This document shows, one piece after another, positions 31,878 to 53,227 of a stretch of 64,000 nucleotides of DNA. The stretch covers positions 20,150,001-20,214,000 of the forward strand of contig NC_073394.1 of assembly GCF_028641065.1 (NCBI RefSeq). Reading direction: 5' to 3'. The translations under genes were made by a program, and so were the position numbers. Origin of the DNA: Leucoraja erinacea. Its lineage: Eukaryota. A model generated the notes under the pieces. That model was not told the DNA's origin. It searched no databases and saw only the letters and a program-made list of their open reading frames with translations. The stretch's first letter is position 1, and each line of letters opens with the position of its first letter.

Positions 31878-31944
31878 ATGGGGTGGCTGGGGAACCCACT
31901 GCGGCCACTCCTGCTCCTGTTGGTGATGTTGACGCCACATTCAG
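31878..31944 (+). CDS. B7-H6-like exon 1: signal peptide
   Basis: MGWLGNPLRPLLLLLVMLTPHS(G); CAG|gtcaga phase-1 donor. Confidence 0.85.
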
Positions 31945-34900
31945 GTCAGAGCCGTGGCTGGGCTGCGCTGGGCTAGGGTACGCGGGCCGAGAGGCCGCTC
32001 GGGTCGCAGAATGGGGAGCTCGGTGCCGGGGTGCGCGACCTACCTTTCCCGGGGGCTGGTCGCTGCCTCGGGGGGTTTAGCCTGGCATCATGGTCGGCAC
32101 GGACATTGTGGGCCGAAGGGCTTGTTCCTCTGCTGATTAACGTGATTCTGGTAGGCCGAAAGGCGTGTTCCTATGATATTGTGGGCCAAAGGGCCTGATC
32201 CTGGGCTATAGGGTGATTTCACTAAAGGGAGGTCAGCTTGGTTATTGCGGACCGAGCAGAGGTGTTCGGCGAAACGATCGCCCAACCTCCGCTTGGTCTC
32301 ACCGATCTAGATCTGCTGACATCTAGAGCAGCGGACGCAATAGATGAGGTTGGAAGAGATGCAGGTAAACCTCTGTCGCACCTGGAACGATTGCTTGGGT
32401 CCTTGAACGTAGTCGAGGGGGGAGGTAAAGGGACAAGTGTTGCATCTCTTGCGGTTGCAAGGGAAAGTGCCCGGGGAGGGGGTGGACCGAGAGGGAAGGG
32501 AAGAATTGACAAGGGAGTTATGGAGGGAGCGGTCTTTGCGGAAGGCAGATATGGGGGGGAGATGGGAAGATGTGGCGAGTGGTGGGGTCACGTTGGAGGT
32601 GGCGAAACTGACGGAGGATTACTTTTTGTATGTGGGCGATCGTTTCGCCGAACACCTCCGCTCGGTCCGCAATAACCAAGCTGACCTCCCGGTGGCTCAG
32701 CACTTCAACTCCCCCTCCCACTCCGTCCCCGACCTCTCTGTCCTGGGTCTCCTCCATGGCCACAGCGAGCAGCACCGGAAATTGGAGGAACAGCACCTCA
32801 TATTCCGTTTGGGGAGTCTGCATCCCGGGGGCATGAACATCGAATTCTCCCAATTTTGTTAGTCCTTGCTGTCTCCTCCCCTTCCTCAACCCCCCTGCTG
32901 TCTCCTCCCATCCCCCAGCCTTCGGGCTCCTCCTGCTTTTCCCTTTCTTGTCCCCACCCACCCCCGCCCCCGATCAGTCTGAAGAAGGGTTTCGGCCCGA
33001 AACGTTGCCTATTTCCTTCGCTCCATAGATGCTGCTGCACCCGCTGAGTTTCTCCAGCTTTTTTGTGTAACCTCCGGTACATGTTAGTGGATGGGAAAAC
33101 ACGCACTTTCCCACCCGTTAAAAACATAAAAAACGGCCAGGTTTTGATCTGCAATTTATTGTGCCAGTCGGGGTTACCGTGAGGCACAGCTAGCTAGAGT
33201 TATAGAAAAAAAAAGATAGAAACTAAGATTTAAAGGTTTAAAGGTCCAAAATATCGTGAATTATCGCGTTTGCTCGCTGAATTTCATCAAAAGTAAGTCA
33301 ATAATGCCTTACTTTTGATGAAATTCAGCGAGCAAACGCGATAATTTCCGATATTTTGGACCTTTAAATCTCCACGGCAAATGTCCGCTGTTCACTTCCG
33401 CTGGATTGGTACCTTCAGCTCCCTCTTTAATTTACCTTAGTTTCTATCTTTTTTTTCCTGTAAATCTAGGTAGCTGTGCCTCACGGTCACCCCGACTGGC
33501 ACAATAAATTGCAGATCAAAACCTGGCCGTTTTCTACGTTTTTAACGGGTGGGAAAGTGCGTGTTTTCCCATCCACTAACATGTACCGGAAGTCTAGCAT
33601 GTCCTCCACTTGAGATTTTTGGTCACGTGGGTGCGGATCTACGCTCCAGTGACCTTTAGTGAAATCACCCTATACTGTTTTATGTATAATAGCACAAATA
33701 TTACGGGCTGACAGCTCTGTTCCTCCACTGTGCTGTTCTATGTGTAATTGTCAGGGCGGCGCAATGGCGCAATGGTAGAGTTGACTTGCTGCCTTACAGC
33801 GCCAGAGATCGTGGTTTGTTCCTGACATCGGGTGCTGCCTACAAGGAGGTTGTACGTTCTCCCTGTGACTGCGTGGGTTTCCCCGGATATTCCGGTTTCC
33901 CCCCACACTCAAAGTACAAGTTTGTAGGTTAACTAACTTTCTGCCAAAATTGTTCCTAGTGAGTAGGATAGTGCTTGTGTACGGGATTATAGCTGGTCTG
34001 CACTGACTCGGTGGGCCAAAGAGCCTATTTCTGCATTGTATCTCTAAAGTTTAAAGCCTCTAAACTCAGCATAGACATTGTGGGCTGAAGGGCCTATTTC
34101 TCTGCTATACTGTTTTATGTAGAATGGGTGGCACGATCTTGTACTGTACTATTTAAGATCCTTGGTGGGGGGTGTCTTTGACAAGATAGTACTTGAGATG
34201 TTTTCTCTGGTGGGAGAGGCATGATCAAGGGGATATGGCTACAAAGTAAGGAGTCGGTCATAGAGCCGCACAGCATGGAATCAGGCCTGTCGACCCACCT
34301 TGTCCATGCTGACCAACGTACCCCATCTAAGCTAGTCCCACCCATCCTCGTTTAGATCATTTTTCTAGGGTGCATTCTAACATGCAAATATTTTAACATA
34401 TTTTAATATGTATATTTGTAAAAAAAATATTCATATTTTAATGTATTTAAAATAATTTTTAATATTCTAATATGTACTTTTTTTTCCAATTTACAGGACA
34501 GTTGACGTTGAAAGCAAGCAAAAGTCCAGCGGAACTCATCCTGTACGAAAATGGACTTCTCGAGTGTGAGATTGCTAATCTCAGTGCGATTACTTTGAAC
34601 CCAAATAATTTAGGTGTTTTATGGGTTTTTACCGGTGGAACTGAAGAATTAAATATCTTTATGTATTCTAACGGACAGATAACAAATCTGTGGGAGGAAG
34701 CAGAGCTGTCTAAAAACTCAATTTTAGATGGAAACATGTCACTTTTCCTGAGACATGTTACGTTAAAACATTTGGGGGAATATCGCTGTGAAGTTTTTAT
34801 TCCACCAAATGACAAAGCTTCTCTGACGGTAAAGCTTGAAGTTTTAGGTAAGGAGATTTCTTGCACTTCACTGTAAATATTTGCGATAAAATAATATATA

Positions 34901-37900
34901 TAGAGCAGTAGTCATTCAGTGCGGAAACAGGCCTTTTGGTCCAACAGGTCTTTTCGTTGCTGCCGACCAACATGCCCCACTTGCTGTCAAACCAAAGCTT
35001 TATTCTGGCTTGATGGAGTTTGCAAAATTATTTTCTCCGATATACAAACTTATATCCAAACTTTTTCAGTCTTCTTACTGTAGGAAGGAAGCCATTAAGC
35101 TGGCGAGAAGATTTAGAAGCATGTTGTCAGGACTCGAGGATTTGAGCTACCGGGAGAGGTTGGGCAGGCTAGGACTTTATTCATAGTCATATAGCACGGA
35201 AACAGGCCCTTCAGTCCAAATGGTCCATGCTGATCAATATGTCCCATCTGCCCATATTTGGCACATATCAGTCTTAACGTTTCCTATCCATGTACCTGTC
35301 CAAATGCTTTTAAATGTTGTTGTAGTACCTACCTCAACTACCTCCTCTGGCAGCTCATTCCATATACCTACCACCCTCTGTGTGAAAGTTTTTGTCATTT
35401 AAATCTTTCCCTTCCCACGTTAAAACTATGTCCTCTGGCTCTTGATTCCCCTATTCTGGATAAAATACTCTGTGCTTTCACCCTATGTATTCCCCTCATG
35501 ATCTTATACACGACTATTAGATCACCTCTCAGCCTTCTGCGCTCCAAGAAATAAAGTCCTAGCCTGCCCAAATGCTCCCTCTAGCTCAGGCCCTTGAGCC
35601 CTGGCAAAATCCTCCTTCGTCTTCTCTGCACTCTTTCCAGCTTAATGGTAGTTTCTTAGAGGATGGAGACCAAATGATTATGGGTACAAGTTTGTATTTC
35701 AGAGAAAATAGTTTTGCAAATTCCATGGTAGACACAAAATGCTGGAGTAACTCAGCGGGACAGGCAGCATCTCTGAAGAGAAGGAATGGGCGACGTTTCG
35801 GGTCAAGACCCTTCTTCATGGGTGACCTTTAGGGTGGAGACCCTTCTTCTAATGCAAATTCCATCTTGCTAGTATAACGCCTTAGTATGAAAGCAAAATT
35901 CTACATTTATTTGATATTTGAAGGAAGAACAAATGTTATTGGAACTCTCATATCAGGTAGAAACTATGAACTGAAAGATATCAAATGTCATAGGTTGATT
36001 GCGTTGCATGGGAGCATCCACGCTGTATTACTAAACTAAGCTAAACTGGGCTCATGCAAGAGCTGTTCCCAAACCAAGTCTTTATGTGACCCAACAGTAT
36101 GTTTTCTATGTTAAGTATAGCCGTTGAGACATTAATATATATATTTTTTTTATAGCACGACCCACAGTAACTATTGTTTCTGAGAAGCTTGTGGAGGTTG
36201 GCACTGGAGGAGAGATGATTTTAGGTTGTCAGTTAAATGGATATTATCCTTGCGAATGCAAAACGGATTGGTTTCAGTCAAACCCGTCACAAAAGAAAAC
36301 AAAGATGTTAACTGATATCTGCATCGCCCCTCCAATCAAAAATCCTGATGGGACATGCAACGTGACTACTGAAGTTCGACTGGAACCTCGTGTAGAAGAT
36401 ATTGGCAGCAGTTTTGAATGCCGGGTGACACACAAGGCATTTCCAGAGTCATACACTGCGAAAGCTGCAGTGACTTTGAAAGGTCAGTTAGTTTTAGTTT
36501 TGGAGATAGTGTGGAAACAGGCCCTTCGGCCCAATGAGTCTGTGCTGACCAACTATTTCCCATACACTAATTCTATCCTACATATTAGGGGCAATTTAAA
36601 GAGGCCAATTAACTTACAAACTCACATGTCTGGAATGTGGGACAAAACCGGAGAACCCGGAGGAAACCCACGCTGTCACGGGGAGAACGTACAAACTCTG
36701 TACAGACAGCACCTGTAGTCAGGATCGAACCTGGGACACAGGCGGTGTAAGACAGCAACTCTACCGCTGCGCTGTAGTGTTCTTTCTATTTTTTAATGAA
36801 AAGTTGAAATTTCAAACTTTTGGTTACGTTCATGTTGAGGGGTAGTCACGGAGTAATCCAGCACGAAAACAGGCCCTTCAGCCCAATTCATTCGTGCCGA
36901 CTAAGATGCCCGCGTTTGGCATATACCCCTCTAACCCTTTCCTCTCCACGTACATATCCAAATGTCTCTTAAATGTTGTGATAGTACCTGCCTCAACTAC
37001 CTCCTCCTGCAACTCGTTCCATATACCCACCACTGTGTAAAAAAAGGTAATCGGGTTTTAATTAAATCTTTCCCCCCTCACCTTAAACTTGGGATCAGAA
37101 GTGACTTTTGGGATGGGTGGAAAGTTGTAACGTGGGGTAGTCATAGAGTTGTACAGCAAGGAAACGGGCCATTCGGCCCAAAGTCTATACAGGTGCACAA
37201 CCTTTTATCCGAAAGCCTTGGGACCAGACACTTGTCGGATTTCGGACATTTTCGGATTTCCGAATGGAAGATTTTTAGCGTAGATTAGGTAGGTAGCGCG
37301 GGCGGCTTGAAAAGTCTGGAGCAGCTGCCTCCTCCCCGGAGACCGGGAGAATCATTGCATAAATGTTAGTCAGTTAGTTTGGAGGGATTTTATGTGGTGG
37401 TGGTGGTGGAGTAGGGGTGAAGGGGGAAACTTTAATTCTTAGTCCCCTACCTGGTCGGCGACTCCCAACCTCGCGGAGCTGGGGGCTTCGTCCGGCCGCG
37501 GGGCGGCGCCGGTTGTAGCTCCGACCCCGGCAACTCTACCCCTGGCTGCGCGGCTCCAAATCCAGCGACGCTCCGCGAACGTTGCATCGGCGGCCACAGC
37601 GCTCCGGAGCTTGCGGACGGCGACCCGGTAAGGCATTGCCCGTCCCCCTGGTGTCCCCAGCGCTGCGACGCCGCCGACTCCCGACATTCGCGGAGCTGGG
37701 GCTCCGGCCGCGGGCCGCGCTGGATTTGGAGCGCCTCGTTCCAGGGGTATAGTTGCCGGGGTCGGACTACACCTGCACTGCGGAGCTTACTAAAAAAAGG
37801 CATTGACCCGTCCCCGCCTCTCGACCAGGTAGGGGACTAAGAATTAAAGTTTACCCCTTCACCCCCCCTTCACATAAAAGCCCTCCAAACTAACTGACTA

Positions 37901-40900
37901 ACATTTAAGCAATGATTTACAGATGTTTAAGTGTCTCCCCGGTCTCCGGGGAGGAGGCAGCCGCTACAGTAGTACAGCCCTGGGTTGACCGTGGGTCGTT
38001 TCGGGTCAAGTTTGGCGCCAAACGCGAGCTTTGGTGCGCAGACGACATCTGGAAAAAATGGCCGGTTTTCGGCGTTTTTCGGTTTCCGGAACACCGGATA
38101 AAAGGTTGTGCACCTGTACCATCAAAATCCCCATCAAGTTTGTCCCATTGGCCCACATTTGGTCCTTATCTCTCTGACCCTTTCCCATGCAAGTATTTGT
38201 CCAAAGATCTGTTAAATGTTATTATATCTACATCAGCTACCTCCTCGTACAGCTCATTCCATACAGCCACCACCCTATGAATAAAAAAGTTGCCCCTCAG
38301 GATCCTATTAAATCTTTCCCTCTCACCTTAAACTATGGTGTGCACTGGTTCTTGATTTCCTACCCTGGGTAAAAGACTTTGAACATTCACCCTTTCAATT
38401 AGCCTCGGGATTTTCTACACCGCTATAAGCTGAAGATAAAACAAGTATGATTTTTTTTTTTTTTTAAATAGTTTGATAAAGGCTTTTTAAACTGAGTATT
38501 TTTATAAAACAATTATGCTAACCCAAACTTCTTTCTGTTAAATCTGTCCATGAACCTTTTTCTGCTAAATACATCTGTAACTATAATTATCTTCTCAAAG
38601 TGTTGAGTATTTATAACTTCAATAACTTTTTTGATAATTGCATCTCTTAAGGGCTAATTGTACTTTTACTTTTATAAACTGTAAGTTTCACATCCTAAGT
38701 AAATCATTTTCTTCTCTTCTCTTTATTTCTTGTTACCTTTTATCAATGGCTTTTAAATTCTCCCATGTGGAAAAAAATTTCCTCTTGGTCACTTCCGAGT
38801 CTTTTCCCAAACATGTTCAGGCTTTTAAATGTAGATGTGAGCGGTTCGTTCTGTACCATCTTCATCAGTTCATAAGTTATAGGAGCAGAATTACGCCATT
38901 CTGCCCGTTGAGTCTACTCTGCCATTCAATCAATCATGACTGAGCTAGCGCTGAACCTCTCAACCCCATTCCACCTCAACCCCATTCAACTGCCTTCTCT
39001 CCATAACCTTTAATGTCTTTACTAATCAAGAACCTGTCAATCTCCACTAAAAATACCCAATGACTTGGCCTACACTGCCATCTGTGGCAATGAATTCCAT
39101 AGATTTACCACCCTCTGTCTAAAGAAATTCCTCCTCATCTCTTTTCTAAAGGTACGTCTTGTAATCTTGTCATTTTTTTTGCACTTTTGTATTACAGAAG
39201 CAGAAATTCATCTGTCCAAAAGCTCAATAGTTGGAAGCATCATTGGAAGTGTAATTTTTTCTGTAATGCTGTTAGCAGCTGGAATTTACCTGTACATGCG
39301 GTACATTTATAAAGGTAATGCTTTTCTACTGTGGATTAATTTATAGAAAACGATTCAAAGAATCATAAGTTATTTGGCTGGGGTACAATTAAATATTTTT
39401 GCCTTCAGCCCACCGAGTTCATGCCAACCATCGATCATCTGTTCACACTAGTTCTATGTTATCCCACTTTCTCAATCACTCCCTACACGCTAGAGCCAAT
39501 TTTAAGAGGACAAATAACCCAAAAACCCGCACGCCTTTGGGATGTGGGAGGAAACCGCAGCACCTGGAGAAAACCCACGCTGTCGCAGAGAGACCGTGTA
39601 AACTCCACACAGACAGTCCCGAGGTTAGGATCAACCCCGGGGTTCTGGCGCTGTGAGGCAGCAGCTCTACACACTGCACCACTGTGCCAACCTAATTGTA
39701 TAATTTTCTAGTTAACCTGTGCTGTACAAACTTGTGACAATTTTGGCATTGCCAACTATACTGTAAATGATTAGTCTACTAACTATAAATAATCAATGAT
39801 ATTGTTGGTTAAGTTTGGTCCCACATACCGTATTTTGCAGATATTTGTTAATGATTATTTAAATTGATGTTCTTATTCCATTTCAAGTCCATTGCTCTGT
39901 GAAAGTGGTAACACAAGTAGATGGAGTGGTAACAAAGGCATAGGAAATGCTTGCCTTCACTGGTCGGGGCATGGCGTATAAGAGTCAGGATTTATAGGAC
40001 TTTGGTTAGGCCACATTTAGAGCATTGCATGTGATTCTGATTGCCTATTACAGGAAGGATGTGGAGGCTTAGGCAAGGGTGCAGAAAAGGTTCACCAAAA
40101 AAATGCCTGGATTAGAAACATAGAAACATAGAAATTAGGTGCAGGAGTAGGCTGATCATCCAACTCAGTATCCTGTACCTGCCTTCTCTCCATACCCCCT
40201 GATCCCCTTAGCCACAAGGGCCACATCTAACTCCCTCTTAAATATAGCCAATGAAGTGGCCTCAACTACCCTCTGTGGCAGAGAGTTCCAGAGATTCACC
40301 ACTCTCTGCGTGAAAAAAAGTTCTTCTCATCTCGGTTTTAAAGGATTTCCCCTTTATCCTTAAGCTGTGACCCCTTGTCCTGGACTTCCCTAACATCGGG
40401 AACAATCTTCCTGCATCTAGCCTGTCCAACCCCTTAAGAATTTTGTAAGTTTCTATAAGATCCCCTCTCAATCTTCTAAATTCTAGAGAGTATAAACCAA
40501 GTCTATCCAGTCTTTCTTCATAAGACAGTCCTGACATCCCAGGAATCAGTCTGGTGAACCGTCTCTGCACTCCCTCTATGGCAATAATGTCCTTCCTCAG
40601 ATTTGGAGACCAAAACTGTACGCAATACTCCAGGTGTGGTCTCACCAAGACCCTGTACAACTGCAGTAGAACCTCTCTGCTCCTATACTCAAATCCTTTT
40701 GCAATGAAAGCTAACATACCATTCGCTTTCTTTACTGCCTGCTGCACCTGCATGCCTACCTTCAATGACTGGTGTACCATGACACCCAGGTCTCGCTCCC
40801 TTTCCCAATCGGCCACCATTTAGATAATAGTCTGCTTTCCTGTTTTTGCCACCAAAATGGATAACCTCACATTTATCCACATTATACTGCATCTGCCAAA

Positions 40901-43900
40901 CATTTGCCCACTCACCCAGCCTATCCAAGTCACCCTGCAGTCTCCTAGCATCCTCCTCACAGCTAACACTGCCCCCCAGCTTAGTGTCATCCGCAAACTT
41001 GGAGATATTGCCTTCAATTCCCTCATCCAGATCATTAATATATATTGTAAATAGCTGGGGTCCCAGTACTGAGCCTTGGGGTACCCCACTAGTCACTGCC
41101 TGCCATTGTGAAAAGGACCCGTTTACTCCTACTCTTTGCTTCCTGTTTGCCAGCCAGTTCTCTATCCACATCAATACTGAACCCCCAATGCCTTGTGCTT
41201 TAAGTTTGTATACTAATCTCTTATGTGGGACCTTGTCGAAAGCCTTCTGGAAGTCCAGATACACCACATCCACTGGTTCTCCCCTATCCACGCTACTAGT
41301 TACATCCTCGAAAAATTCTATAAGATTCGTCAGACATGATTTACCTTTCGTAAATCCATGCTGACTTTGTCCAATGATTTCACCACTTTCCAAATGTGCT
41401 GCTATCCCATCTTTAATAACTGACTCTAGCAGTTTCCCCACTACCGATGTTAGACTAACTGGTCTGTAATTCCCCATTTTCTCTCTCCCTCCCTTCTTAA
41501 AAAGTGGGGTTACGTTTGCTACCCGCCAATCTTCAGGAACTACTCCAGAATCTAAAGAGTTTTGAAAGATTATTACTGATGCATCCACTATTTCTGGAGC
41601 TACTTCCTTAAGTACTCTGGGATGCAGCCTATCTGGCCCTGGGGATTTATCGGCCTTTAATCCATTCAATTTACCCAACACCACTTCCCGGCTAACCTGG
41701 ATTTCACTCAAATCCTCCAACTCCTTTGACCCGCGGTCCCCTGCTATTTCCGGCAAATTATTTATGTCTTCCTTAGTGAAGACGGAACCAAAGTAGTTAT
41801 TCAATTGGTCCGCCATATCCTTGTTCCCCATGATCAACTCCCCTGTTTCTGACTGCAAGGGACCTACATTTGTTTTAACTAATCTCTTTCTTTTCACATA
41901 TCTATAAAAACTTTTGCAGTCAGTTTTTATGTTCCCTGCCAGTTTTCTTTCATAGTCTATTTTTCCTTTCCTAATTAAGCCCTTTGTCCTCCTCTGCTGG
42001 TCTTTGAATTTCTCCCAGTCCTCCGGTATGCTGCTTTTTCTGGCTAATTTGTACGCATCATCCTTCGCTTTGATACTATCCCTGATTTCCCTTGTTATCC
42101 ATGGATGTACTACCTTCCCTGATTTATTCTTTTGCCAAACTGGGATGAACAATTTTTGTAGTTCATCCATGCAGTCTTTAAATGTCTTCCATTGCATATC
42201 CACCGTCAACCCTTTTAGAATTAATTGCCAGTCAATCTTGGCCAATTCACGTCTCATACCCTCAAAGTTACCTTTCTTTAAGTTCAGAACCATTGTTTCT
42301 GAATTAACAATGTCACTCTCCATCCTAATGAAGAACTCAACCATATTATGGTCACTCTTGCCCAAGGGGGCACGTACAACAAGATTGCTAACTAACCCTT
42401 CCTCATTACTCAATACCCAGTCTAAAATAGCCTGCTCTCTCGTTGGTTCCTCTACATGTTGATTTAGATAACTATCCCGCATACATTCCAAGAAATCCTC
42501 TTCCTCAGCACCCCTGCCAATTTGATTAGAGGGTTTTAGCTGCAATGAGAGATGGGATAGACTTGGTTTTCTCTAGAATCACCAGAAGATACGGGAGACC
42601 GGATAGAGGTATAAAAAATTATAGAAAGGAGAGACAGTTGGAACCTTTTTCCCTGGATGGAAATGTCAAAGACTAGAGGGCAGAGATTTAAGGTGAAAGG
42701 GGCAAAGTTTTAAATATATATGCGGGGCCAGTTTATTTTACACCGTTTATTATGGGTACCTGGAACCCGCTGCCAGGGATGGTGGTGGAGGCAGAACCGA
42801 TCATTTTAATTTTAGAGATTTTTAGATAGGCACATAGACATGCAGTGAATGGAAGGATATGGATCATGTGCAAGCAGAGGAGATTAGTTTAACAACATTA
42901 TGATGGGCACAGACTTTGTGGGTCAAAGGCCTGTTCCTGTGCTATGCTGTTCTATGACTATGTATTGGTTTAATTTGATATTCATCAGTCAGAAATGCTG
43001 ATACCTCTTATATAAGAATTAATATCCTCCATGCACTTAGTGCCATGAAATTGTAGGTGCAGTTTGATACAAATGTTTGTATTCATTAAACATTGTCTTC
43101 TAACTTCAGAATGACAGGCAGTGACTAGTGTGGTACCGCAAGGAATTTTCAGGAAAAGTCAAAGCTAATTTGCACAAATGCACTGAGTCTTTGGCCCAGA
43201 GTAGGGGAATTGAGAAACAAGAGGACATAGTATTAAGGTGAGGGGGGAAAGATTTAATAGGGACCTGAGGGGAAAAATCTTTGCACAGAGAGCTGCCAGA
43301 GAAGGTAGTTGAAGCAGGTATTACGACAATGTTTAAGAAACATTTAGAGAGGTACATGGATAGGTTTAGAAGGATATGGGCAAAAAGCAGGCAGGTGGGA
43401 CTAGTGTAGATGGGGCATGTTGATTGGTGTGGGCAAGTTGGGCCGAAGCGCCGGTTTCCTACGCTGACTATGACTCCATATTTGGAATAATCCATCTTTA
43501 AATTTCTAATTTTCCTTCATTTATTCTCAGTTCCACCCAATGTATGCGATCTTCAGATGCCTGCTCGATTTATCCATCAACAAACTGCAGAGATTACATG
43601 CCACGTGTCTGGATTTCGACCTGATGTCATTTCTGTTGGCTGGTATTTGAGGAGAATGAATGATGCTGAAGAGTCCTTCATTGGTGAAAGCAAAAGGAAC
43701 CAGGAGATTATAAGGTTTAGCAAAGCAAAGGAGATAACAGAAATAGGAAAGGAGAATGCAACTGACGTTAATTGGAAAGTCAGACAAAGTAATTTTGTCG
43801 TACATGATGATGGAACACAGAGCTTGTCCAGCACTCTTGAGATTTATCCTGACTTAATGGAGGACAATAAAGCAGAAATCATATGTAGAGTGTCGTATCC

Positions 43901-46900
43901 AACTGGAACTCAGGAGAAACGCACCTGTTTACAAGTTGATGCAAGTAAGCATTTTACAGATATGAAGTAATTGCGTAGAAACAAGAAACTGCAATTGCTG
44001 GTTACAAAAAAGAATGACATAAAGTACTAGACTAACTCAGCGGGCTGGGCAGTATTTCTGATGTTTAGAGTATGGACCCTTCTTCCATCAGGAAACTTTC
44101 TGACCCAAAACAAATGAAGAAGTGTTCCGATCTGAAACGTTTCCTACCCATTTTGGTAAAAGGGTCCCGACCAGAAAGGTTGGAAGGGTTCCATCCTGAA
44201 ACAACACCTATACTTGGCTGAAGAGGGGATCCGTCCCGAAATATTATTTATCCATGTTCTCCAAAGATGCTGCCTGACCCGCTGAGTTATTCCAGCACTT
44301 TGTCTCCGTTTGTTTTAAGTCAGTGTCGGGAGACTACAGTATTCTTCTTCAATTTATCCAAGTTGTGGATCACCCATATGGTTTCTTGATTCATTAATTT
44401 CTGATGGTATGTCCTAGAATTTACAGTCTTTAAATTTATAGAACGGAGGTCCTTTACTTTTCACAGAGTTTGTGATTATTCACTGTGAACAGCAAACTAT
44501 GCAAAAAACATTTGGAAAATGCTACTTTCACAGTTAAAGTGATGCATCGTTGAGTTATGTAATAGTTCTGCATTATTTGCCTTCGTCTTATAGATGGTTT
44601 GGTTTTAAGTATATCCACTGCAATAAGATAATTTATTTAAAAGCTTTCTTTAGGGGCAATTGTAGTGAATAGTTACTGGTATGGATTCAAAGATGTGGGA
44701 CTAAAAGATGTGACAAAGAAAAACAGAAGGCACCTTCAGTTTAAATACTTCAGTATTTAAAAATGCACCTGGGATCACTTCTGTAGTGTCCGGAGGACTG
44801 GGGAGGAATTGTAGCAGTGTACTGGAAAGGATTTGTGGACTGGGAATCCCCATGAAAAATTGTTGTTGGGACAAGATCAGTTTGAAACTGTTAAACACTG
44901 AGATTAATATATTTGTGTTAGGATATTTACATGGATGGCATCTTTTACAATTTTTGGGAAACTCCACAGCATTTTACAGGCAGGGAAAAACTTTTGAGAT
45001 ATAGTTATAAAGTTGGAAACAGTTTATGGCAAGAAGGTACATTAATGGAGATAAGATATAATTAAATCCAAAAACTGGTTAATGTTGGGATTTCCTTGTT
45101 TGCTGAATGGCGGATCTTATGCCCAAATTCCCGACTGCCTTTGATAAGATTACCCTTCTCTAAATTTGCTTTGAAACAGCACTATCGAGTCTGAAAATTA
45201 CTGCAAGTGAATGAGAAATTAAGGATACAGCATGAGTATCGGAAGAAAATGAGATAGGGAGTAGATAGGTTTAGGCTTATTGTCAGGTGTACCGAGGTAC
45301 AGTGAAAAGCTTTGTTTTGCATGCTGTCCAATCAGTTCATATAATACTGCACATAAATACAATCAATTCAAACTCAAGTACAATAGGTAGAGCAAAGGGG
45401 ATGATACAGAGTGCAGAATATAGTTCTCTGCATTGTAGCGCATCTGTTCCATAGACAAAGTTCAATGTCCGTTATGGAATAGAGGTGAATCGGACAGTAT
45501 CCTAACTTGTGGAAGAACCATTCTGAAGCCTGATAACAGAGGGGTAGAAGCTGTTCCTGAGTCTGGTGGTGTGTGCTTTCAAGCTTCTGTACCTTGAGAA
45601 GAAGGAATGACCTGCATGGGACAAGTCTTTGATTATGTCAGCTGCTTTCCTGAGTCAGCATGAAGTGCAGATGGAGACACTGGTGGGTAATCTGGTTTGT
45701 GTGATGGACTGGGCTGCAGCTACAGAAATTAAAATGTTACAAGCCTAATATGCGCAAGTTTATTTTTGAATTGTAAATGACCATTGCATTTTGTCACTGC
45801 TATGCGATAGACACACAGCATCTTTTCCTTAAGATTGCAAATGTTAAGCTGATTTTACTTTGTGTTTTTCTCCTTAGTTGCTCCTAAGTTGGGGAACATA
45901 ATCGCACCTCCTGTTGTGCGTCACAACACTTCAGTGATGCTGACTTGTCCAATAAGCTTTTTCACGCCACGTCAGTTAACAATCAGTTGGTATGAAAGAA
46001 TAAATGGGGTAAAATCTCTTTTGCTGGACCACACTGAGGAAAATGAGGCAAAAAACACGGTGGGCCGGTATTCCCATTGTCTGCGTGAGTTTACCTATCC
46101 AGACCACACTTACAGCGTCTACAGCATGCTCACTTTCATTGCATCAATTCAAGAAAATGATGGAAAAGAATATTTATGTGAAGTGAATCACGTTAGCTTG
46201 AAACACCAAGCCGAGAAATGGGTTAAGCTGGAAGTGAAAGGTAACTCAAACTTAAAGTCTTTGATTGCGCATTCACCATCAAACGTGTAATTGTCGTAGC
46301 TTTGTTGACATTATTATGATATATTTCAGTCAGAGGCATTAAAATGGCCTTCCACCATTCATGGGGTAGAAGGCAGGAGAATGGAGTTGAGAGGGAAAGA
46401 CAGATCAGCCATGATTGAATGGTGGAGTAGACTCGATGGGCCAAATGGCCCAATTCTGCTCCTATGACTTTATACCCACCACCCTCAGTGTGGAAATGTC
46501 ATCCCTCAGCTTCCCATTAAATCTTTCCCCTCTCACCTTAAACCTATGTCCTCAGCTTCATACACACCTCGAGGGCCTTTCTCCACCTCCCCCAGTCCTC
46601 GGCGACCACTTCTCAGTCAGCAGCACCAATGTTTTAACATCATGACTATATTTTGTGTTTACAAATGTAGTAAAATTCTATTTTCTGATTTGCAGCATTT
46701 CCTACACTTGATACCATCCGGAGCGAACCAGTGAATCCAGAAATTGACAAAGAAATGACTCTCTCCTGCAAAGTGCACTCGTTTTATCCTAAAGAGATTT
46801 CTGTCTTATGGTTCAAAGATAAGAAAGCCATAAAAGGGAATGACACATCTGAATTGATCGAGAATCCGGAGAAGTTGTATGAAATCACCACGACTTGCAC

Positions 46901-49900
46901 CACAATTCCAACGTTATCAGACAAAAAGAGTAAATATCATTGCTTGGTCACACATGAGAGCCTTCCCAAGCCAAAGTTTGCGGAATATGTTCCCGAGAAT
47001 TTAGGTATGCTTCCTCTCCTTTCAAAGATTGTTTCTGCTATTTAGACAATAAGGACATTATTAAATTGTGTTCTAATTTCATTGTATTATCTTGTCAGCT
47101 TTCCGTCATATCATAACCTTTACCTGTACATTTACTTCTAGTTGGCAAAAACATTGAGTTTAAATGTTGTAATTCCTCATGCTGGAGAACTTAGAACAGT
47201 ATTCAGTATTCACTTTATTGTCATTTCACTAAGTACTTGCATACACAGAAGAAACAAAAAATTGTTTCTCATCAGTTTTGTCATCAGTGCAATTAATAAA
47301 AACAGAAAAAATACTTACAAGTTTAAAAATGATCATCTCTAAAATAGAACTAAAACAAACATTCAGACAGAACCATCGATCCCAAACATAGGAACAATTT
47401 AAAGTGCTGTTCAGTGGCTTCACCCTGACAGGTGACTAGCTGGGGGGGGGGGGTAGGGGTGGGTGTGTGTATGGGGAGGGGACACAGTTTCATACATTCA
47501 ATATAGAGCAGTATAGTGTGTAGGAAGGAACTGCAGATGCTGGTTTATAACGAAGATAGACACAAAATGTTGGAATAACTTAGCAGATCAAGCAGCATCA
47601 CTGAAGAAAAAGAATAGGTGACGTTTCAGGTCCGACGAAGAGTTCCGACCCGGAACGTCACCTATTCATTTTCTCCAGAGATCCTGATCTGCTGAGTTAT
47701 TGCTTTAGAACAGTTCAGCACAGCAACAGGACCTTCGGCCCACAATGTCAGTGCCAAAGTTTAGTCGTTTAAAGGTACAGCATGGAAACAGGCCCTTTGG
47801 CCCACCAAGTCCGCGCCAACCAGCGATCACCCCCATAAACTAACACTATCCTACACACAGGGGACAATTTACAATTTACAGAAGACATTTAACGTGCAAA
47901 CCTTTACGTCTTTGGATAGTGTGAGGAAATGGAGCACCCATTTTGCCCCCGCTCACAGACCTATGTCCTGTGGATCTTGATTTCCCTACCCTAGCTAGAC
48001 GACTGTGCATTTACCCTATCTATTCCTCTCATGATCTTATACACCTCTATAAGATCGCCCGTCAACCTCATGTACTCCAAGGAATAAAGTCCTAGCCTGC
48101 CCAACCTCTCTCTATAGCTCAGGCCCTCGTGTCCTAGGCTATAATCTTCTTCGTATATACTCTTCGTAAATCTTCTCCGCACCCTTTCCAGCTTTCCAAT
48201 TGTTATTTCTAGTCAACTTACAAACACTGATTACATCCTCATTGTACAAAACCTTTTCTGGAACATTACCTAAAACAATGTTTTAAGATGCATTTCAGCT
48301 TTTCTTATTCCTCTTTCTTACAGTATCTTCTCCCAAAGTAAAAAAGATTACTTGTGATCCTCCGAATCCTGAAGTCGGGAAGACATTGACTTTGTCCTGT
48401 GAAATAATGGACTTTTATCCAGCGAGTATTCAAATTGACTGGTTTAGGGATGAAGTGAGAATAAATGAAGATTCAAAATATGGAATCGCTAACGAAGAAT
48501 TGATGAATGAACGCAGTCTCTGCAGCAAAGTCACCAAATTAACCTTGAGTCCAAGCACTGATGATCATCAACATCAATACATGGTTGAAGTTTATCATTC
48601 AAAATCTTCCACCAAACCTCAGAAGCAATGCTTCCGGTTACTTCTTAAAGGTGAGTTAAGGTTCTCTTTATCAAGCTGTGGTAAAATGAATTCCAGCTGT
48701 TATTTGGAAATCATAATCAGCAAGAGCAGATTCTAAGACCTGAAAAAGTTAATTGAGAGTTATTTGAGTGCAATAACATCATACTGGTAACACAGAAAAC
48801 GGCCCTTATGGTGTTTTGTTCCCATAATAGATTTTGTTTTTCTTTCCTCATAAATTGCATGAGAGCAAATTTTATTTCATTTTAACGATTTTGGGTAGTG
48901 ATTTATGAATTTTGTAAAGGTGAATTACAGAATTCACACAAAAGGCTGTAACGTGGGACTTTGCTGTAATTTTCTAATATTGTATTTTTAAAATATCTAT
49001 TGTTTTGAAAAGGAATAATTCAATTTTTGGGCAGTACAGTGGCATAGCTGCTAGAGCTGCTGCCTCACAGGGCCAGAGACCCAGCTTTAATCCTGACCTC
49101 GGGTACTGGCTGCGTGTGGAGTTTGCAGGTTCTCTGTGACTGTCGATTTTGTATGGGTGCCCCTTTTTCTTGGTTGTGCAGAGAGGGCAGTGTGTTTCAT
49201 TCTGCACATAGGTCTCACCAATGCTTTTTTAGATACAAAAGGGTTCTGGTACACATATTGCTTCTTGCTTTTGGTGTCGAAAGCAGATTATCGTCCTATA
49301 TGCTGATTAAGAGCCTGACCGACTAATGATATTAATTTGATTCTTTTAACATTTGTAATTTTTTTGTAATATTAAAAATGTTAAAATGTAGTTTTTAACT
49401 CTTTAGAGGAGCTGGTAGGCCATGCTGTACGTAGAGAAATGCGGGCCAACAGGACTAGCCGAAGGGCCTGTTTCCATGCTGTACAGCACTTTGACTATGA
49501 TTAAATGGTGGAGGAGTGACAACTTTGTAAAATGACTGTGAATATTTATCCACTTTATCCATGCCCCCTCGTCATCTTGTACTGTTACAGATCTCCGCAT
49601 TGCTTCCTGATTTCTTGGATCCAGGAAACAATGTTTCCCCTTCAACAAGGAGCTTTTATTATATATTCACAGTTTACAAAGTATTGCGTCATTGTAACAC
49701 TGACCATCAGATTACGATATCATCAGCCCTATCCACGATGCACTCGAGCCTCCCATGACCTTGGCAGCTAGTGACAGCTCGGTGGATGTAGAGTACCTTT
49801 AAATTTGTCTGAAATATGTAACGGTTATAAAAAGACTTTAAATATATGCGTAAACAAATATTAACACATTAAAACTCTAACAAATAATTAACACTAAAAT

Positions 49901-52900
49901 TAAAATGCTGAATTTACCTATTTCCACTGGATTGAATGGGACAGTCATTGACGTTAGTTTTTCTAGCAAACCTGAGGATGAAATACAAAGTGGATCAGAC
50001 CTATCTTGTCACGCATCCACCATTTAGTCAGAGTCGTAGAGTTGGCAAGCATAGAAACAGGCCCTTTGGCCTGCCTTGTCCATGCTGACTAATTTGGAAG
50101 TCTGGGAAAATCCCATTTTCCTGCATTTGGTTCATAGCCCTCTGAAATATTTTCCTCTCCATACATCTATCCAATGTCTTTTAAAAGTTATAATTACATC
50201 CGCTTCTATAGCTTCCTCTGGCAGCTCATTCCAGATACGGTCAACCCTCTGAGTGAAATAAAATTGTCATCCCTTTAAGCCTAACCTGGGTGCCTGGAAT
50301 GCAGTGGGGGCGCCGGGGGTGATGGTGGGCAGTGGAAATAATGGTGTTTAAGAGGCTTTTAAATAGTCACATGGATGTACAGGGAATGGAAGGATCACGT
50401 GCAGGCAGATAAGAATTGGGCTTGGTATCATGATTGGCACAGACATTGGTTGGCCGAAGGGCCTGTTCCTGTGCTGTACTATTCTATGTTTTAAATACAT
50501 TTTCTTTTCATTATAGGCTCACCAACAATTTCAGACTTCAAAATGGTGCCAGAGATCCCATGGTTTGGTGAATATTTATCCATATCTTGTTCCGTACATG
50601 GCCTCTTAAGAAAGGATTTCATTTTTGAATGGTATAGAGGATCTGAGCCTGTGAAATGTGGAGTAACTGATTCAGGTTTTGTGAGTACCGGTGACAACAA
50701 TTACAAAGTAGAGAGTTGCCTTATATTTCTAGTAACCGCGGAAGACTTTGAAAGAGAGTTAATCTTTCTGTGTAAAGATCGTTATAATAATGAAGCATTC
50801 AAAAGGCGTATTCAACTGCCCCTAAAAGGTGAGTGTGTTGTGAAAATGATTTGTTTAACTATATTTTGATAAGTTATTATTCTAAATTTGTATATAACCA
50901 ACATTGAAGACAGTAAAGGTTTTACAATGAGTGCAGGAGAATGGCTTTTGTTGTTGATACAAACACCCTTTTATCTACTTTCCATCTCTGGCCTTTGTCC
51001 ACACATCTGCCAATGAAAAACTCTCACCTGAATCTACCTATCATTTGCAAGGCTTTGTCCCACTCTCACTTGTCTAGCTTTCACTACCCCTGCTAAAGTC
51101 AGTATGAAGAAGGGTCCCAAACTAAAACATTGTTTATCCATGTCTTCCAGAGATGCAGCCTGACACGCTGTTACTCCAGCACTTTGTATTTTTGTTTAGC
51201 TTTTGTTGTTCATCGCCTTAAGTGAATCCCAAAATCCTGGGGCGTCACGAGCTTCACTGCCTACGCCACCACGTCTCACCATCGCGCAATGCGTGTGTAA
51301 TGCATGCCATGCGAGCGTCACGACACGGACGTGACACGTAAATGATGTCGCGTCGTGACGCATAAATGATGTTGCATAAATAACGCGGAAATAACACCCA
51401 AGTGGGAAGGCCCTTTACACAGATTTATAGTCGAAACCTCGTATTTTTGGGTGATTAGTCTAGTTTAGTTTAGAGATACAGCGCAGAAACAGCCCACAGG
51501 ATCCGGCCGACCAACGATCACCTTGTACACTAACATTATCATACACACTAGGGACAATTTACAATTCTTGCCAAAGCCAAGTAACCTACAAATCTGTACG
51601 TCTTTGGAATGCGGGTGGAAATCGGAGCACCCGGAGAAAACCCATGCAGTAACGGGGAGAACGAGCAAACTCCGTACAGACAGCACCTAGAATCAGGATC
51701 AGACCCAGGTCTCTGGCACTGTAAGGCAGCACTGCGACCAGGTGTCTAGAAGAGGCTTACCAGAATGATGCCTGGATTAGTGGGTAGTAGCTGTCAAGCG
51801 AGGTTGGGTAACCCTAGTGTTTTCTTTGGAACTGGAAATTGCAGGGAGACCTGTGAGAAATGCCGGTGTATAAAATTATGAGAGGCAAAGATAAGTTTGA
51901 CAGTTAAAGACGAGCATACATAGCTTTAAAGTGAGAGGGGCAAAGTTTAATGTGCGAGGCAAGGTTTTTTACACAATGAGTAGAGGGTGCCTTGAATATG
52001 CTGCCTGGGGTGGTGGTGGAGGCAGATATGTTAGTGGCCTTTCAGAGACTATTCGATAGGCACATGGATATACAGGGAATGGAGGGATATGGATAACATG
52101 CAGGCAGAGGAAATTATGTTCATTTTGCATAATGTTCAGCACAAACATTGTAGGTCGAACGGCCTGTCTCTATGCTGTACTGTTCTATGGTCTAATCAAA
52201 GGTGGGGCCCGACACTTCTTTGGGGTATGGGAGAAAACGGGAGCACCTGGAGGAAATCCACACAGTCTCGTGGGTACTGTGCAAACTCCACACACACACA
52301 GCACCTGAGGTCAGGATCAAGCCTGGGTTTCTGGTGCTGAGACAGCAGCTCTGTGTTTGGCAATGGGTAGTTAGTTTGAATTTGGGCCTTGTGTGTTGAT
52401 ATTATTGGCACCGACTATAGAAATAGGATTTCACTGCAAAAAAGGGTGGCACCATGGGGGGCGGGGGAAAGCCAGAAGCGAGGTGGGGGTAGGACAAAGC
52501 CTGGCATGTGATAGATCGATATAGGTGAGGTTTTTGATTGTCAGATGGTTGGACAAAGGCCAGAAATGCAACAAAAAAAAAGTTTCAAAAGAGGATAGAA
52601 GAGGCATGAAATTTGAAGCCAGAGGAAGTAGTGTGGGTGGATGAGGGCAAAGAGAAGGGGAAAGGAAGAATCGGGTGTGCATCCAGGTGGGGCACAGGGT
52701 AGAGAGGGTTTAAAAAAAAAGGTGAGGGCAGTAAAAAGGGCAAGGGGTGTTTGTAAGGTTAAATACCAAAAATTGAAGTCTCCACTGTTCATCAACATTG
52801 GGTTGTAAGCTAACCAAGCGGAATAACATTATTTTGTTTGCCCAGGTCACTTTGGAACATAAAGTAAGCATGACTTTAACTTGTATTTGATATTTGTGAT

Positions 52901-53227
52901 TTCAATTTTTCCACAGCTGTGGCTCCTAAAGTATCAAGTTTTACCAACTGTGACAATGATCGACTCAAAATAGGTGGAAAATATACCCTTGGTTGCAGGA
53001 TTGAACATTTTTGCCCAAAGGATATAGAAGTTGTTTGGTACAAGACATCAAACGATTGCACGGATTATCAAATTATGGGAAAGCCCGAAATAGACAAAAA
53101 TGGACTGTACTCGACAATCACAAAGCTGCCAATTCTCATGGAAAAAAATTCGGTAAATTATGTTTGTGAAGTTCGACATGAAAAGACCAATGAAATTTTT
53201 GAGAAGTCATTCAAACTGCGGGTTTAA
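31878..53227 (+). CDS. NCR3LG1: B7-H6/NCR3LG1-like gene, 10 exons, 965 aa: SP-IgV-IgC1-TM-(IgC1)x6 (overall span)
   Basis: Exons of 67+351+327+117+414+363+309+327+312+311 = 2898 nt, all GT-AG phase-1 junctions, no internal stop; V and C1 domains resemble B7-H6. Orthology versus paralogy is unproven. Confidence 0.8.
32211..33670. mobile_element. Palindromic (foldback) MITE whose left arm is disrupted by a Penelope insertion
   Basis: TIR GGGTGATTTCACTAAAGG / CCTTTAGTGAAATCACCC flanked by TATA; 33074-33590 is a long imperfect inverted repeat centred near 33302. Confidence 0.85.
32229..33072. mobile_element. Penelope-like insertion with internal inversion
   Basis: About 32229-32625 reads on minus (PGTFPCNRKRCNTC...NLIYCVRC); about 32631-33072 reads on plus (GDRFAEHLRSVR...EFSQFC-stop and terminal region). 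Confidence 0.88.
33754..34050 (+). mobile_element. HE1/V-SINE-like SINE (further copies at ~36490-36775, 39400-39690, 47760-47940, 51460-51735, minus strand)
   Basis: GGGCGGCGCAATGGCGC tRNA-like head and conserved core GTACGTTCTCCCTGTGACTGCGTGGGTTT. Confidence 0.8.
34497..34847 (+). CDS. B7-H6-like exon 2: IgV domain
   Basis: LLECEI...LGVLWVF...GNMSLFLRHVTLKHLGEYRCEVFIPPNDKASLTVKLEVL; ttacag/gtaagg. Confidence 0.92.
36156..36482 (+). CDS. B7-H6-like exon 3: extracellular IgC1 domain
   Basis: LGCQLNGYYP...W...PIKNPDGTCNVTTEVRL...EDIGSSFECRVTH; tatag/gtcagt. Confidence 0.92.
37190..38116. mobile_element. Tc1/mariner(pogo)-type non-autonomous element
   Basis: 22-bp TIR CAGGTGCACAACCTTTTATCCG, TA on both sides; internal inverted repeats ~37324-37457 vs ~37823-37961. 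Confidence 0.9.
39198..39314 (+). CDS. B7-H6-like exon 4: transmembrane segment
   Basis: EAEIHLSKSSIVGSIIGSVIFSVMLLAAGIYLYMRYIYK; ttacag/AAG|gtaatg; 117 nt, phase 1-1. Confidence 0.88.
40117..42523 (-). mobile_element. Young CR1 LINE (2.4 kb) nested in an older plus-strand CR1 remnant
   Basis: 618-aa ORF with RT (FADD); (TAGAAACA)n 3' tail; GATTAGA repeated at 40110-40116 and 42524-42530. Confidence 0.95.
43531..43944 (+). CDS. B7-H6-like exon 5: post-TM IgC1-like domain 1 (long insert)
   Basis: VPPNV...EITCHVSGFRPDVISVGWY...DGTQSLSSTLEI...EIICRVSY; ctcag/gtaagc. Confidence 0.87.
45878..46240 (+). CDS. B7-H6-like exon 6: post-TM IgC1 domain 2
   Basis: LTCPISFFTPRQLTISWY...DGKEYLCEVNHVSL; cttag/gtaact. 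Confidence 0.9.
46696..47004 (+). CDS. B7-H6-like exon 7: post-TM IgC1 domain 3
   Basis: TLSCKVHSFYPKEISVLWF...YHCLVTHESL; tgcag/gtatgc. Confidence 0.9.
48324..48650 (+). CDS. B7-H6-like exon 8: post-TM IgC1 domain 4 (F-strand Cys lost)
   Basis: TLSCEIMDFYPASIQIDWF...YMVEVYH; ttacag/gtgagt. Confidence 0.9.
50517..50828 (+). CDS. B7-H6-like exon 9: post-TM IgC1-like domain 5 (divergent)
   Basis: SISCSVHGLL...FEWY...NYKVESCLIF...EDFERELIFLCKD; ttatag/gtgagt. Confidence 0.87.
52917..53227 (+). CDS. B7-H6-like exon 10: post-TM IgC1 domain 6 and stop
   Basis: TLGCRIEHFCPKDIEVVWY...NGLYSTITKL...YVCEVRHEK...FKLRV-stop; ccacag acceptor. Confidence 0.9.

What the first reader, a model, noticed from the sequence alone, without database searches (positions are those of the whole stretch)
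39198..39314. Frame-neutral TM exon: skipping gives a secreted, antibody-shaped V-(C1)7 protein
Seen: the TM exon is 117 nt and phase 1-1, so 36482 can join 43531 in frame. Four of six downstream domains keep both canonical cysteines, and sequons NAT, NTS and NDT are present, which would matter only in the secretory pathway. Inference: one splice choice could flip six domains from cytosolic to secreted, giving a non-rearranging V+7xC1 chain shaped like shark IgW/IgNAR heavy chains and a possible soluble NKp30 decoy.
Basis: inference. Interest (0 to 1): 0.75.

Follow-up and report, generated by a model that had tools for sequence, protein, structure and literature searches.

The report
Skate B7-H6 with cytosolic Ig tail
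This exon is the single membrane anchor of the skate gene for the killer-cell ligand B7-H6, and every skate, ray and shark sequence examined keeps it, so six antibody-type domains likely hang inside the cell; skipping the exon to make a secreted chain appears in gene models of two frog relatives but is untested here and likely minor.

Summary
The exon is real: 39198-39314, 117 nt, phase 1-1, and skipping it keeps the frame. That is no sign of a switch, because all eight internal coding exons of the gene are phase 1-1. The gene is skate NCR3LG1/B7-H6 (best PDB hit, and it lies next to KCNJ11 and ABCC8-like exons), built as leader-V-C1-TM-(C1)6. All 37 cartilaginous-fish orthologue sequences spanning the junction keep the TM segment, including 5 from spliced skate transcript contigs. 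The three post-TM sequons are no more than chance (3 seen, 4.3 expected). Across 48 diverse homologues, sequons are enriched 1.8-fold before the TM and not after it, and several post-TM domains lose the disulfide cysteines. The six domains therefore most likely sit in the cytosol. No read-level test was obtained. The antibody likeness is generic C1 likeness: no J motif, no secretory tail, another locus. The cytosolic C1 array is the notable feature, and this scan has already recorded it several times.

The parts
31878..31944 (+). Exon 1, coding part: leader peptide (22 codons + 1 nt, phase 1)
   Evidence: tblastn of the N-terminus of P0008, 100% identical; donor read from the printed sequence
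34497..34847 (+). Exon 2: V-set domain, B7-H6-like, no FGxG J motif
   Evidence: Pfam V-set E=2.9e-6; top three PDB hits are human B7-H6
36156..36482 (+). Exon 3: ectodomain C1-set domain (C1a)
   Evidence: Pfam C1-set E=2.7e-8; boundaries
39198..39314 (+). Exon 4: stalk and the only TM helix, 117 nt, phase 1-1 (the finding)
   Evidence: KD 19-mer peak 2.26, no domain exon above 1.28; helix 266-285 in the model
43531..43944 (+). Exon 5: post-TM C1 domain D1, Cys pair kept, long insertion carrying NAT
   Evidence: Pfam C1-set E=2.1e-7; residues 346-365 low confidence
45878..46240 (+). Exon 6: post-TM C1 domain D2, Cys pair kept, NTS
   Evidence: Pfam C1-set E=8e-10
46696..47004 (+). Exon 7: post-TM C1 domain D3, Cys pair kept, NDT
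   Evidence: Pfam C1-set E=1.8e-14
48324..48650 (+). Exon 8: post-TM C1 domain D4, F-strand Cys lost
   Evidence: Pfam C1-set E=9.6e-9; pair kept in 0 of 21 species
50517..50828 (+). Exon 9: post-TM C1 domain D5, F-strand Cys lost
   Evidence: Pfam C1-set E=1.4e-4; pair kept in 0 of 21 species
52917..53227 (+). Exon 10, coding part: post-TM C1 domain D6, Cys pair kept; stop directly after the G strand, no tail and no second TM
   Evidence: Pfam C1-set E=6.6e-10

Best explanation
The 117-nt exon is the single membrane anchor of skate B7-H6 (NCR3LG1), kept in every cartilaginous-fish sequence examined, and the main product is likely a type I membrane protein with V-C1 outside and six C1 domains in the cytosol. 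Shown: exon structure, spliced transcripts with the TM, family identity, synteny. Inferred: the ectodomain binds skate NKp30, and the cytosolic C1 chain folds without needing disulfides and works as a rigid scaffold that clusters or tethers the ligand and so sets its surface level (about 0.4 for this role). The frame-neutral phase is a by-product of Ig-exon architecture. A TM-less transcript may arise as a minor product, as modelled in frogs; it would carry free cysteines into the ER and is more likely retained or degraded than secreted as a functional decoy (inference).
For: All 8 internal exons are phase 1-1. 37 of 37 orthologue sequences spanning C1a-D1 have the TM; 39 examined, 2 fragments do not span. 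These include 5 Logan proteins on 1.2-3.9 kb contigs, which must be spliced because the spanned exons lie 11-19 kb apart in the genome. Several species have more than one annotated isoform and none drops the TM, while the frog X1/X2 pairs did cluster together, so such isoforms would show. Leader plus one TM, none later. Net charge after the TM exceeds that before it in 17 of 21 orthologues. In 48 diverse homologues: ectodomain sequons 152 against 84 in shuffles (0 of 500 reach it), post-TM 153 against 141 (80 of 500); ectodomain denser in 42 of 48. In 23 diverse long homologues the Cys pair is kept 23/23 in V and C1a but 1/23 in D1, 0/23 in D4, 6/21 in D5, 1/18 in D6. AlphaFold folds all six domains as beta-sandwiches, mean pLDDT 82.4. 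116 of 150 best representatives have Ig-TM-Ig order. All 4 skate paralogues have their own TM segment.
Against: No raw reads were laid, and contigs drop rare isoforms, so minor skipping is not excluded. In the 21 chondrichthyan species the Cys pair is kept in D1 20/21, D2 20/21, D3 21/21, D6 21/21; in the diverse set D2 18/20 and D3 21/22. NAT and NTS are kept in 13 and 14 of 21 species, close to the two best ectodomain sequons (16 and 15 of 21); 3 of 17 Asn-majority post-TM columns carry S/T at +2, against 1, 0 and 1 at control offsets, too few to decide. Five of 150 representatives lack the TM (P0053, P0061, P0093, P0118, P0183). Topology and the scaffold role were not measured.
Confidence: 0.75

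Rival explanations
1. Regulated skipping of the TM exon makes a secreted 926-aa-precursor V-(C1)7 chain that acts as a soluble NKp30 decoy.
For: In-frame junction. Exact TM-segment loss in RefSeq X2 models of Bombina and Rana homologues and two further unnamed TM-less proteins. Four Cys pairs and two sequons conserved in chondrichthyans. Soluble human B7-H6 blocks NKp30 (PMC13006576, passages).
Against: 0 of 37 chondrichthyan sequences skip. No short TM-less fragment found among 185 candidates, none of which scored (weak, since fragments sit inside clusters). No family-wide sequon enrichment behind the TM. The frog D1 domains lack the Cys pair, so the frog skips are not tied to disulfide-competent tails. 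TM splice sites look ordinary. The frog isoforms are predicted models whose read support I could not see.
Confidence: 0.12
2. A soluble form exists but is the two-domain V-C1 ectodomain cut off by ADAM proteases at the stalk encoded by this exon, as in humans; the C1 tail stays in the cell.
For: Human B7-H6 is shed by ADAM10/ADAM17 (PMC13006576, passages). The model has a low-confidence stalk at 248-267. Compatible with the best explanation.
Against: No data on shedding in skates; the stalk is short (about 10 residues).
Confidence: 0.3
3. The post-TM domains face the ER lumen or outside in the main product, because the helix acts with inverted or re-entrant topology.
For: C1-set domains are normally extracellular (established knowledge). 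Retained Cys pairs and further conserved Cys. The helix is only moderately hydrophobic in skates (2.26).
Against: Leader peptide, B7-H6-type ectodomain with sequon enrichment, positive charge after the helix, no second TM, no sequon enrichment after the helix.
Confidence: 0.06

Closest known systems
Human B7-H6 (NCR3LG1), ligand of NKp30
   Same: V-C1 ectodomain is the best PDB match (E=1.2e-35 over profile positions 29-256); single TM; next to KCNJ11 and ABCC8-like exons, as in the human 11p15.1 list NUCB2, NCR3LG1, KCNJ11, ABCC8 (PMC3608171, passage). NCBI names the Amblyraja member NCR3LG1.
   Different: Six C1 domains follow the TM. The human tail is Gag-like (recalled, not confirmed by a call). 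Human soluble form comes from shedding.
UrIg and UrIg2, non-rearranging VJ-(C1)n genes of elasmobranchs
   Same: One unsplit V exon followed by many C1 exons; UrIg2 has 9-11 C1 domains (PMC12227049, section 7). This already fills the niche of a non-rearranging antibody-shaped chain.
   Different: UrIg genes have a VJ domain and lie in the MHC or the antigen-receptor complex; UrIg2 is described as VJ, then C1 domains, then TM/cytoplasmic. Here the V lacks a J motif, the TM lies after the first C1, the locus differs, and the PDB match is weaker (1.8e-18).
Shark IgW and IgNAR heavy chains
   Same: V followed by a row of C1-set domains if the exon were skipped.
   Different: IgNAR has 3 or 5 C1 domains and antibodies end in a secretory tail (PMC7916673, passages). 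This chain does not rearrange and ends at the last strand of D6. D3 matches MHC class I, Ig and SIRP C1 domains about equally; D2 has only weak hits, led by Ig heavy chains.
Frog NCR3LG1-like genes with TM-less RefSeq isoforms (XP_053576614.1, XP_040183920.1)
   Same: Same V-C1-TM-(C1)n family; X2 lacks exactly the TM segment.
   Different: Other lineage, 25-35% identity; predicted models; no such isoform in any chondrichthyan record seen.

Membership tests
B7-H6 / NCR3LG1 | V-set plus C1-set ectodomain closest to B7-H6 | tested here: met
   Top three PDB hits for the V exon and for the profile are B7-H6
B7-H6 / NCR3LG1 | Position next to KCNJ11 and ABCC8 | tested here: met
   Kir6.2 gene 15 kb downstream on the opposite strand; ABCC-type exons beyond it, named ABCC8 from recall; human order in PMC3608171
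B7-H6 / NCR3LG1 | Leader and one TM helix after C1 (type I) | tested here: met
   by sequence only, no topology predictor or experiment
B7-H6 / NCR3LG1 | Binds NKp30 | not tested
   Skate NKp30 was not fetched and no complex was folded
IgW / IgNAR heavy chain | V assembled by V(D)J rearrangement, with J motif FGxGTx(L/V)xV | tested here: not met
   One complete V exon without GxG in the G strand; motif as given in PMC11599192
IgW / IgNAR heavy chain | Secretory tail after the last C domain, TM exons downstream of all C exons | tested here: not met
   Stop right after D6; TM exon lies after the first C1; tail per PMC7916673
UrIg / UrIg2 | Germline-joined VJ domain | tested here: not met
   No J motif; no Ig or TCR V among the 12 PDB hits of the V exon
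UrIg / UrIg2 | Located in the MHC or antigen-receptor complex | tested here: not met
   Neighbours are a dDENN gene and KCNJ11
Genes with a regulated membrane/secreted splice switch | TM-less transcripts detected in the species | tested here: inconclusive
   0 of 5 spanning skate transcript contigs and 0 of 37 chondrichthyan sequences; no read-level test obtained
Genes with a regulated membrane/secreted splice switch | Secretory-pathway signature (sequon enrichment) on the switchable domains | tested here: not met
   Observed/expected 0.69 in this protein, 1.14 in 21 species, 1.07 in 48 homologues, against 1.45, 1.34 and 1.79 for the ectodomain

The most novel reading that the evidence does not exclude
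Ancestral B7-H6 carries dual-topology C1 domains: cytosolic scaffold when the TM exon is included, secreted V-(C1)7 NKp30 decoy when it is skipped. The skip is conserved from skates to frogs, and it is what keeps four cysteine pairs and two sequons under selection in cartilaginous fish.
Probability: 0.1. Interest if true: 0.8.

Novelty: new variant of a known kind. Interest (0 to 1): 0.42.

Why it matters
C1-set domains are the hallmark of extracellular adaptive-immune proteins. A row of six behind the membrane, kept from chimaeras to coelacanth, lungfish and amphibians, suggests that ancestral B7-H6 had an intracellular module that the human protein lacks, and offers natural disulfide-free C1 folds. 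If skipping were regulated, the same domains would have to work in both a reducing and an oxidising compartment, and soluble NKp30 decoys would have arisen by splicing as well as by shedding. The evidence here makes that a possibility in frogs, not a finding in skates.

Tried and rejected
Read-level test of the junction: not obtained, so skipping is neither shown nor excluded. Run search: no RNA holder listed on record; one raw RNA run of a related organism was offered. Search for short proteins covering residues 170-400: 185 candidates, none scored. Shorter annotated isoforms checked as possible skips and rejected: Chiloscyllium X2 (932 aa) and S. torazame (808 aa) are N-terminally short, Narcine X2 lacks part of D5, Callorhinchus 941 aa lacks the leader; all keep the TM. 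P0053 lacks the TM but is a partial hypothetical model of a paralogue, so it was not counted as evidence of skipping. P0087 and P0118 were dropped from the 50-protein set because their TM call was not at the C1a boundary; the sequon result was the same before and after. First leader search by hydrophobicity missed the exon; homology found it. Atlas search of the dDENN exon gave nothing. Four look-ups of three key papers failed because they are not held: Flajnik 2012, Ohta and Flajnik 2015, Ohta 2019. No complex was folded and no fold search was run.

Full report
Observation. Exon 3 ends at 36482 and exon 5 starts at 43531, both in phase 1, so joining them keeps the frame and would remove 39 codons. 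Four of the six downstream domains keep both canonical cysteines, and NAT, NTS and NDT are present. However, all 8 internal coding exons from V to D5 are phase 1-1, so the TM exon could not be otherwise, and 3 sequons in 688 residues is below the 4.3 expected from composition.

What the gene is. Ten coding exons give leader-V-C1-TM-(C1)6. Each of the nine exons tested occurs letter for letter in XP_055505482.1 of Leucoraja erinacea; that record comes from a contig of the same length as the window's, so it is not independent evidence. The same 90% cluster holds the Amblyraja protein that NCBI names NCR3LG1. Human B7-H6 is the best PDB match for the V exon and for the family profile. A Kir6.2/KCNJ11 gene lies 15 kb downstream on the opposite strand with ABCC-type exons beyond, matching the human list NUCB2, NCR3LG1, KCNJ11, ABCC8 (PMC3608171, one passage seen). 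Four paralogues lie 21 Mb away on the same contig, each with its own TM segment.

Is the exon skipped? No read-level test was obtained, so the evidence is from protein records. Of 39 chondrichthyan orthologue sequences held, 37 span C1a to D1 and all 37 contain the TM. They come from 22 named species plus Logan contigs. Five are on contigs of 1.2-3.9 kb and so are spliced transcripts. Annotated shorter isoforms differ elsewhere. Contigs drop rare variants, so this shows the main form only. Outside cartilaginous fish the picture differs: 5 of the 150 best 50%-representatives join C1a straight to a post-TM domain. Two are RefSeq X2 isoforms, of Bombina NCR3LG1 and of a Rana homologue, identical to X1 except for the 34 and 37 aa TM segment. 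One is a partial hypothetical model and two are unnamed. That RefSeq alternative isoforms usually rest on read support is my recall; I could not see it for these records.

Which side of the membrane? The protein has a leader, one helix and no later hydrophobic stretch. Net charge is higher after the helix in 17 of 21 species and in 40 of 50 diverse homologues (two of the 50 were later dropped). In 48 diverse homologues the ectodomain has 152 sequons against 84 in shuffles (0 of 500 reach it) and the post-TM part 153 against 141 (80 of 500). In the 23 longest of these the canonical Cys pair is kept 23/23 in V and C1a, but 1/23 in D1, 18/20 in D2, 21/22 in D3, 0/23 in D4, 6/21 in D5 and 1/18 in D6. 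This pattern fits domains that mostly live in the cytosol. Against it, the 21 chondrichthyan orthologues keep the pair in D1, D2, D3 and D6 in 20 or 21 of 21, and keep NAT and NTS in 13 and 14 of 21, near the ectodomain's best (16 and 15); NDT is kept in 3 of 21. These species are related, and the column test is too small to decide. AlphaFold on a 40-sequence alignment folds all six domains as beta-sandwiches, including D4 and D5 (mean pLDDT 82.4, pTM 0.44, so domain packing is unresolved); NAT falls in a low-confidence loop.

Mechanism. Shown: a spliced B7-H6 transcript with an internal TM exon and six C1 exons. Inferred with good support: type I topology with the six domains in the cytosol. 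Inferred weakly: the tail is a rigid scaffold that clusters or tethers the ligand and controls its surface level; NKp30 binding is assumed from homology. A TM-less product, if made, would bring D4, D5 and several non-canonical cysteines into the ER and is likely to be a minor or degraded species. A soluble decoy by ADAM shedding, as in humans (PMC13006576, passages seen), is the simpler route.

Comparison. The chain is not an IgW/IgNAR relative in any tested respect: no J motif (motif from PMC11599192, passage), no secretory tail (PMC7916673, passages), internal TM. D3 matches MHC class I, Ig and SIRP C1 domains alike; D2's weak hits are led by Ig heavy chains. Non-rearranging V-(C1)n chains are already known in elasmobranchs as UrIg and UrIg2 (PMC12227049, passages and section 7 read), and this gene is not one of them.

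Novelty. The layout is widespread: 116 of 150 representatives have Ig domains on both sides of a TM, with named members in chimaera, sharks, rays, coelacanth, lungfish, frogs and a newt. Seven full-text searches (listings seen, with passages of PMC13262535, PMC10751288 and PMC11599192) found no description of the cytosolic array, but the three most relevant papers and their supplements were not held, so absence from print is not established. Earlier unreviewed notes of this scan describe the same layout several times, one of them the same exon question with the same verdict; they are repeats, not support.

Verdict. Observation confirmed; secreted-switch reading possible but unsupported in skates (about 0.1); real feature is a B7-H6 with a likely cytosolic C1 array. 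Interest 0.42.

Noticed in passing
G000:C18:41238000-41517000 (L011-L033): Cluster of four paralogous V-C1-TM-(C1)n genes 21 Mb from the window gene; two are near-identical tandem copies. The minus-strand copy showed only V, C1, TM and one weak D1-like hit.
   Followed up: partly
window:46240-46287: Logan protein P0012 (546 aa) reads through the D2 donor into the intron and stops, keeping the TM: a retained-intron or pre-mRNA contig that would give a two-domain tail.
   Followed up: no
P0026 (Narcine isoform X2): Lacks 72 aa of D5, consistent with an internal acceptor in that exon.
   Followed up: no
P0067, P0077, P0092, P0105 and similar: A second group of proteins with V-C1-C1-TM followed by up to about ten C1 domains, up to 2158 aa; taxa not looked up.
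   Followed up: no
P0063, P0085, P0098: Homologues whose tail is a tandem run of D1-like repeats (seven of 167 aa in P0063).
   Followed up: no
P0042 (Amblyraja LOC116984368): Paralogue model with a doubled ectodomain, V-C1-V-C1-TM-(C1)n; may be a fusion of neighbouring genes in the model.
   Followed up: no
window:40692-42572 (-): 627-codon open frame of a LINE reverse transcriptase, antisense, in the intron between the TM exon and D1; similar copies at 928-1941 and elsewhere (class recalled from motifs).
   Followed up: no
window:2907-3035 (+): Exon of an upstream dDENN-domain gene (Pfam E=3e-13), resembling DENND2B/ST5 from recall.
   Followed up: partly
P0008 residues 614, 660, 752, 826, 874, 895: Non-canonical cysteines conserved in 16-20 of 21 species in the post-TM domains; role unknown.
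   Followed up: no
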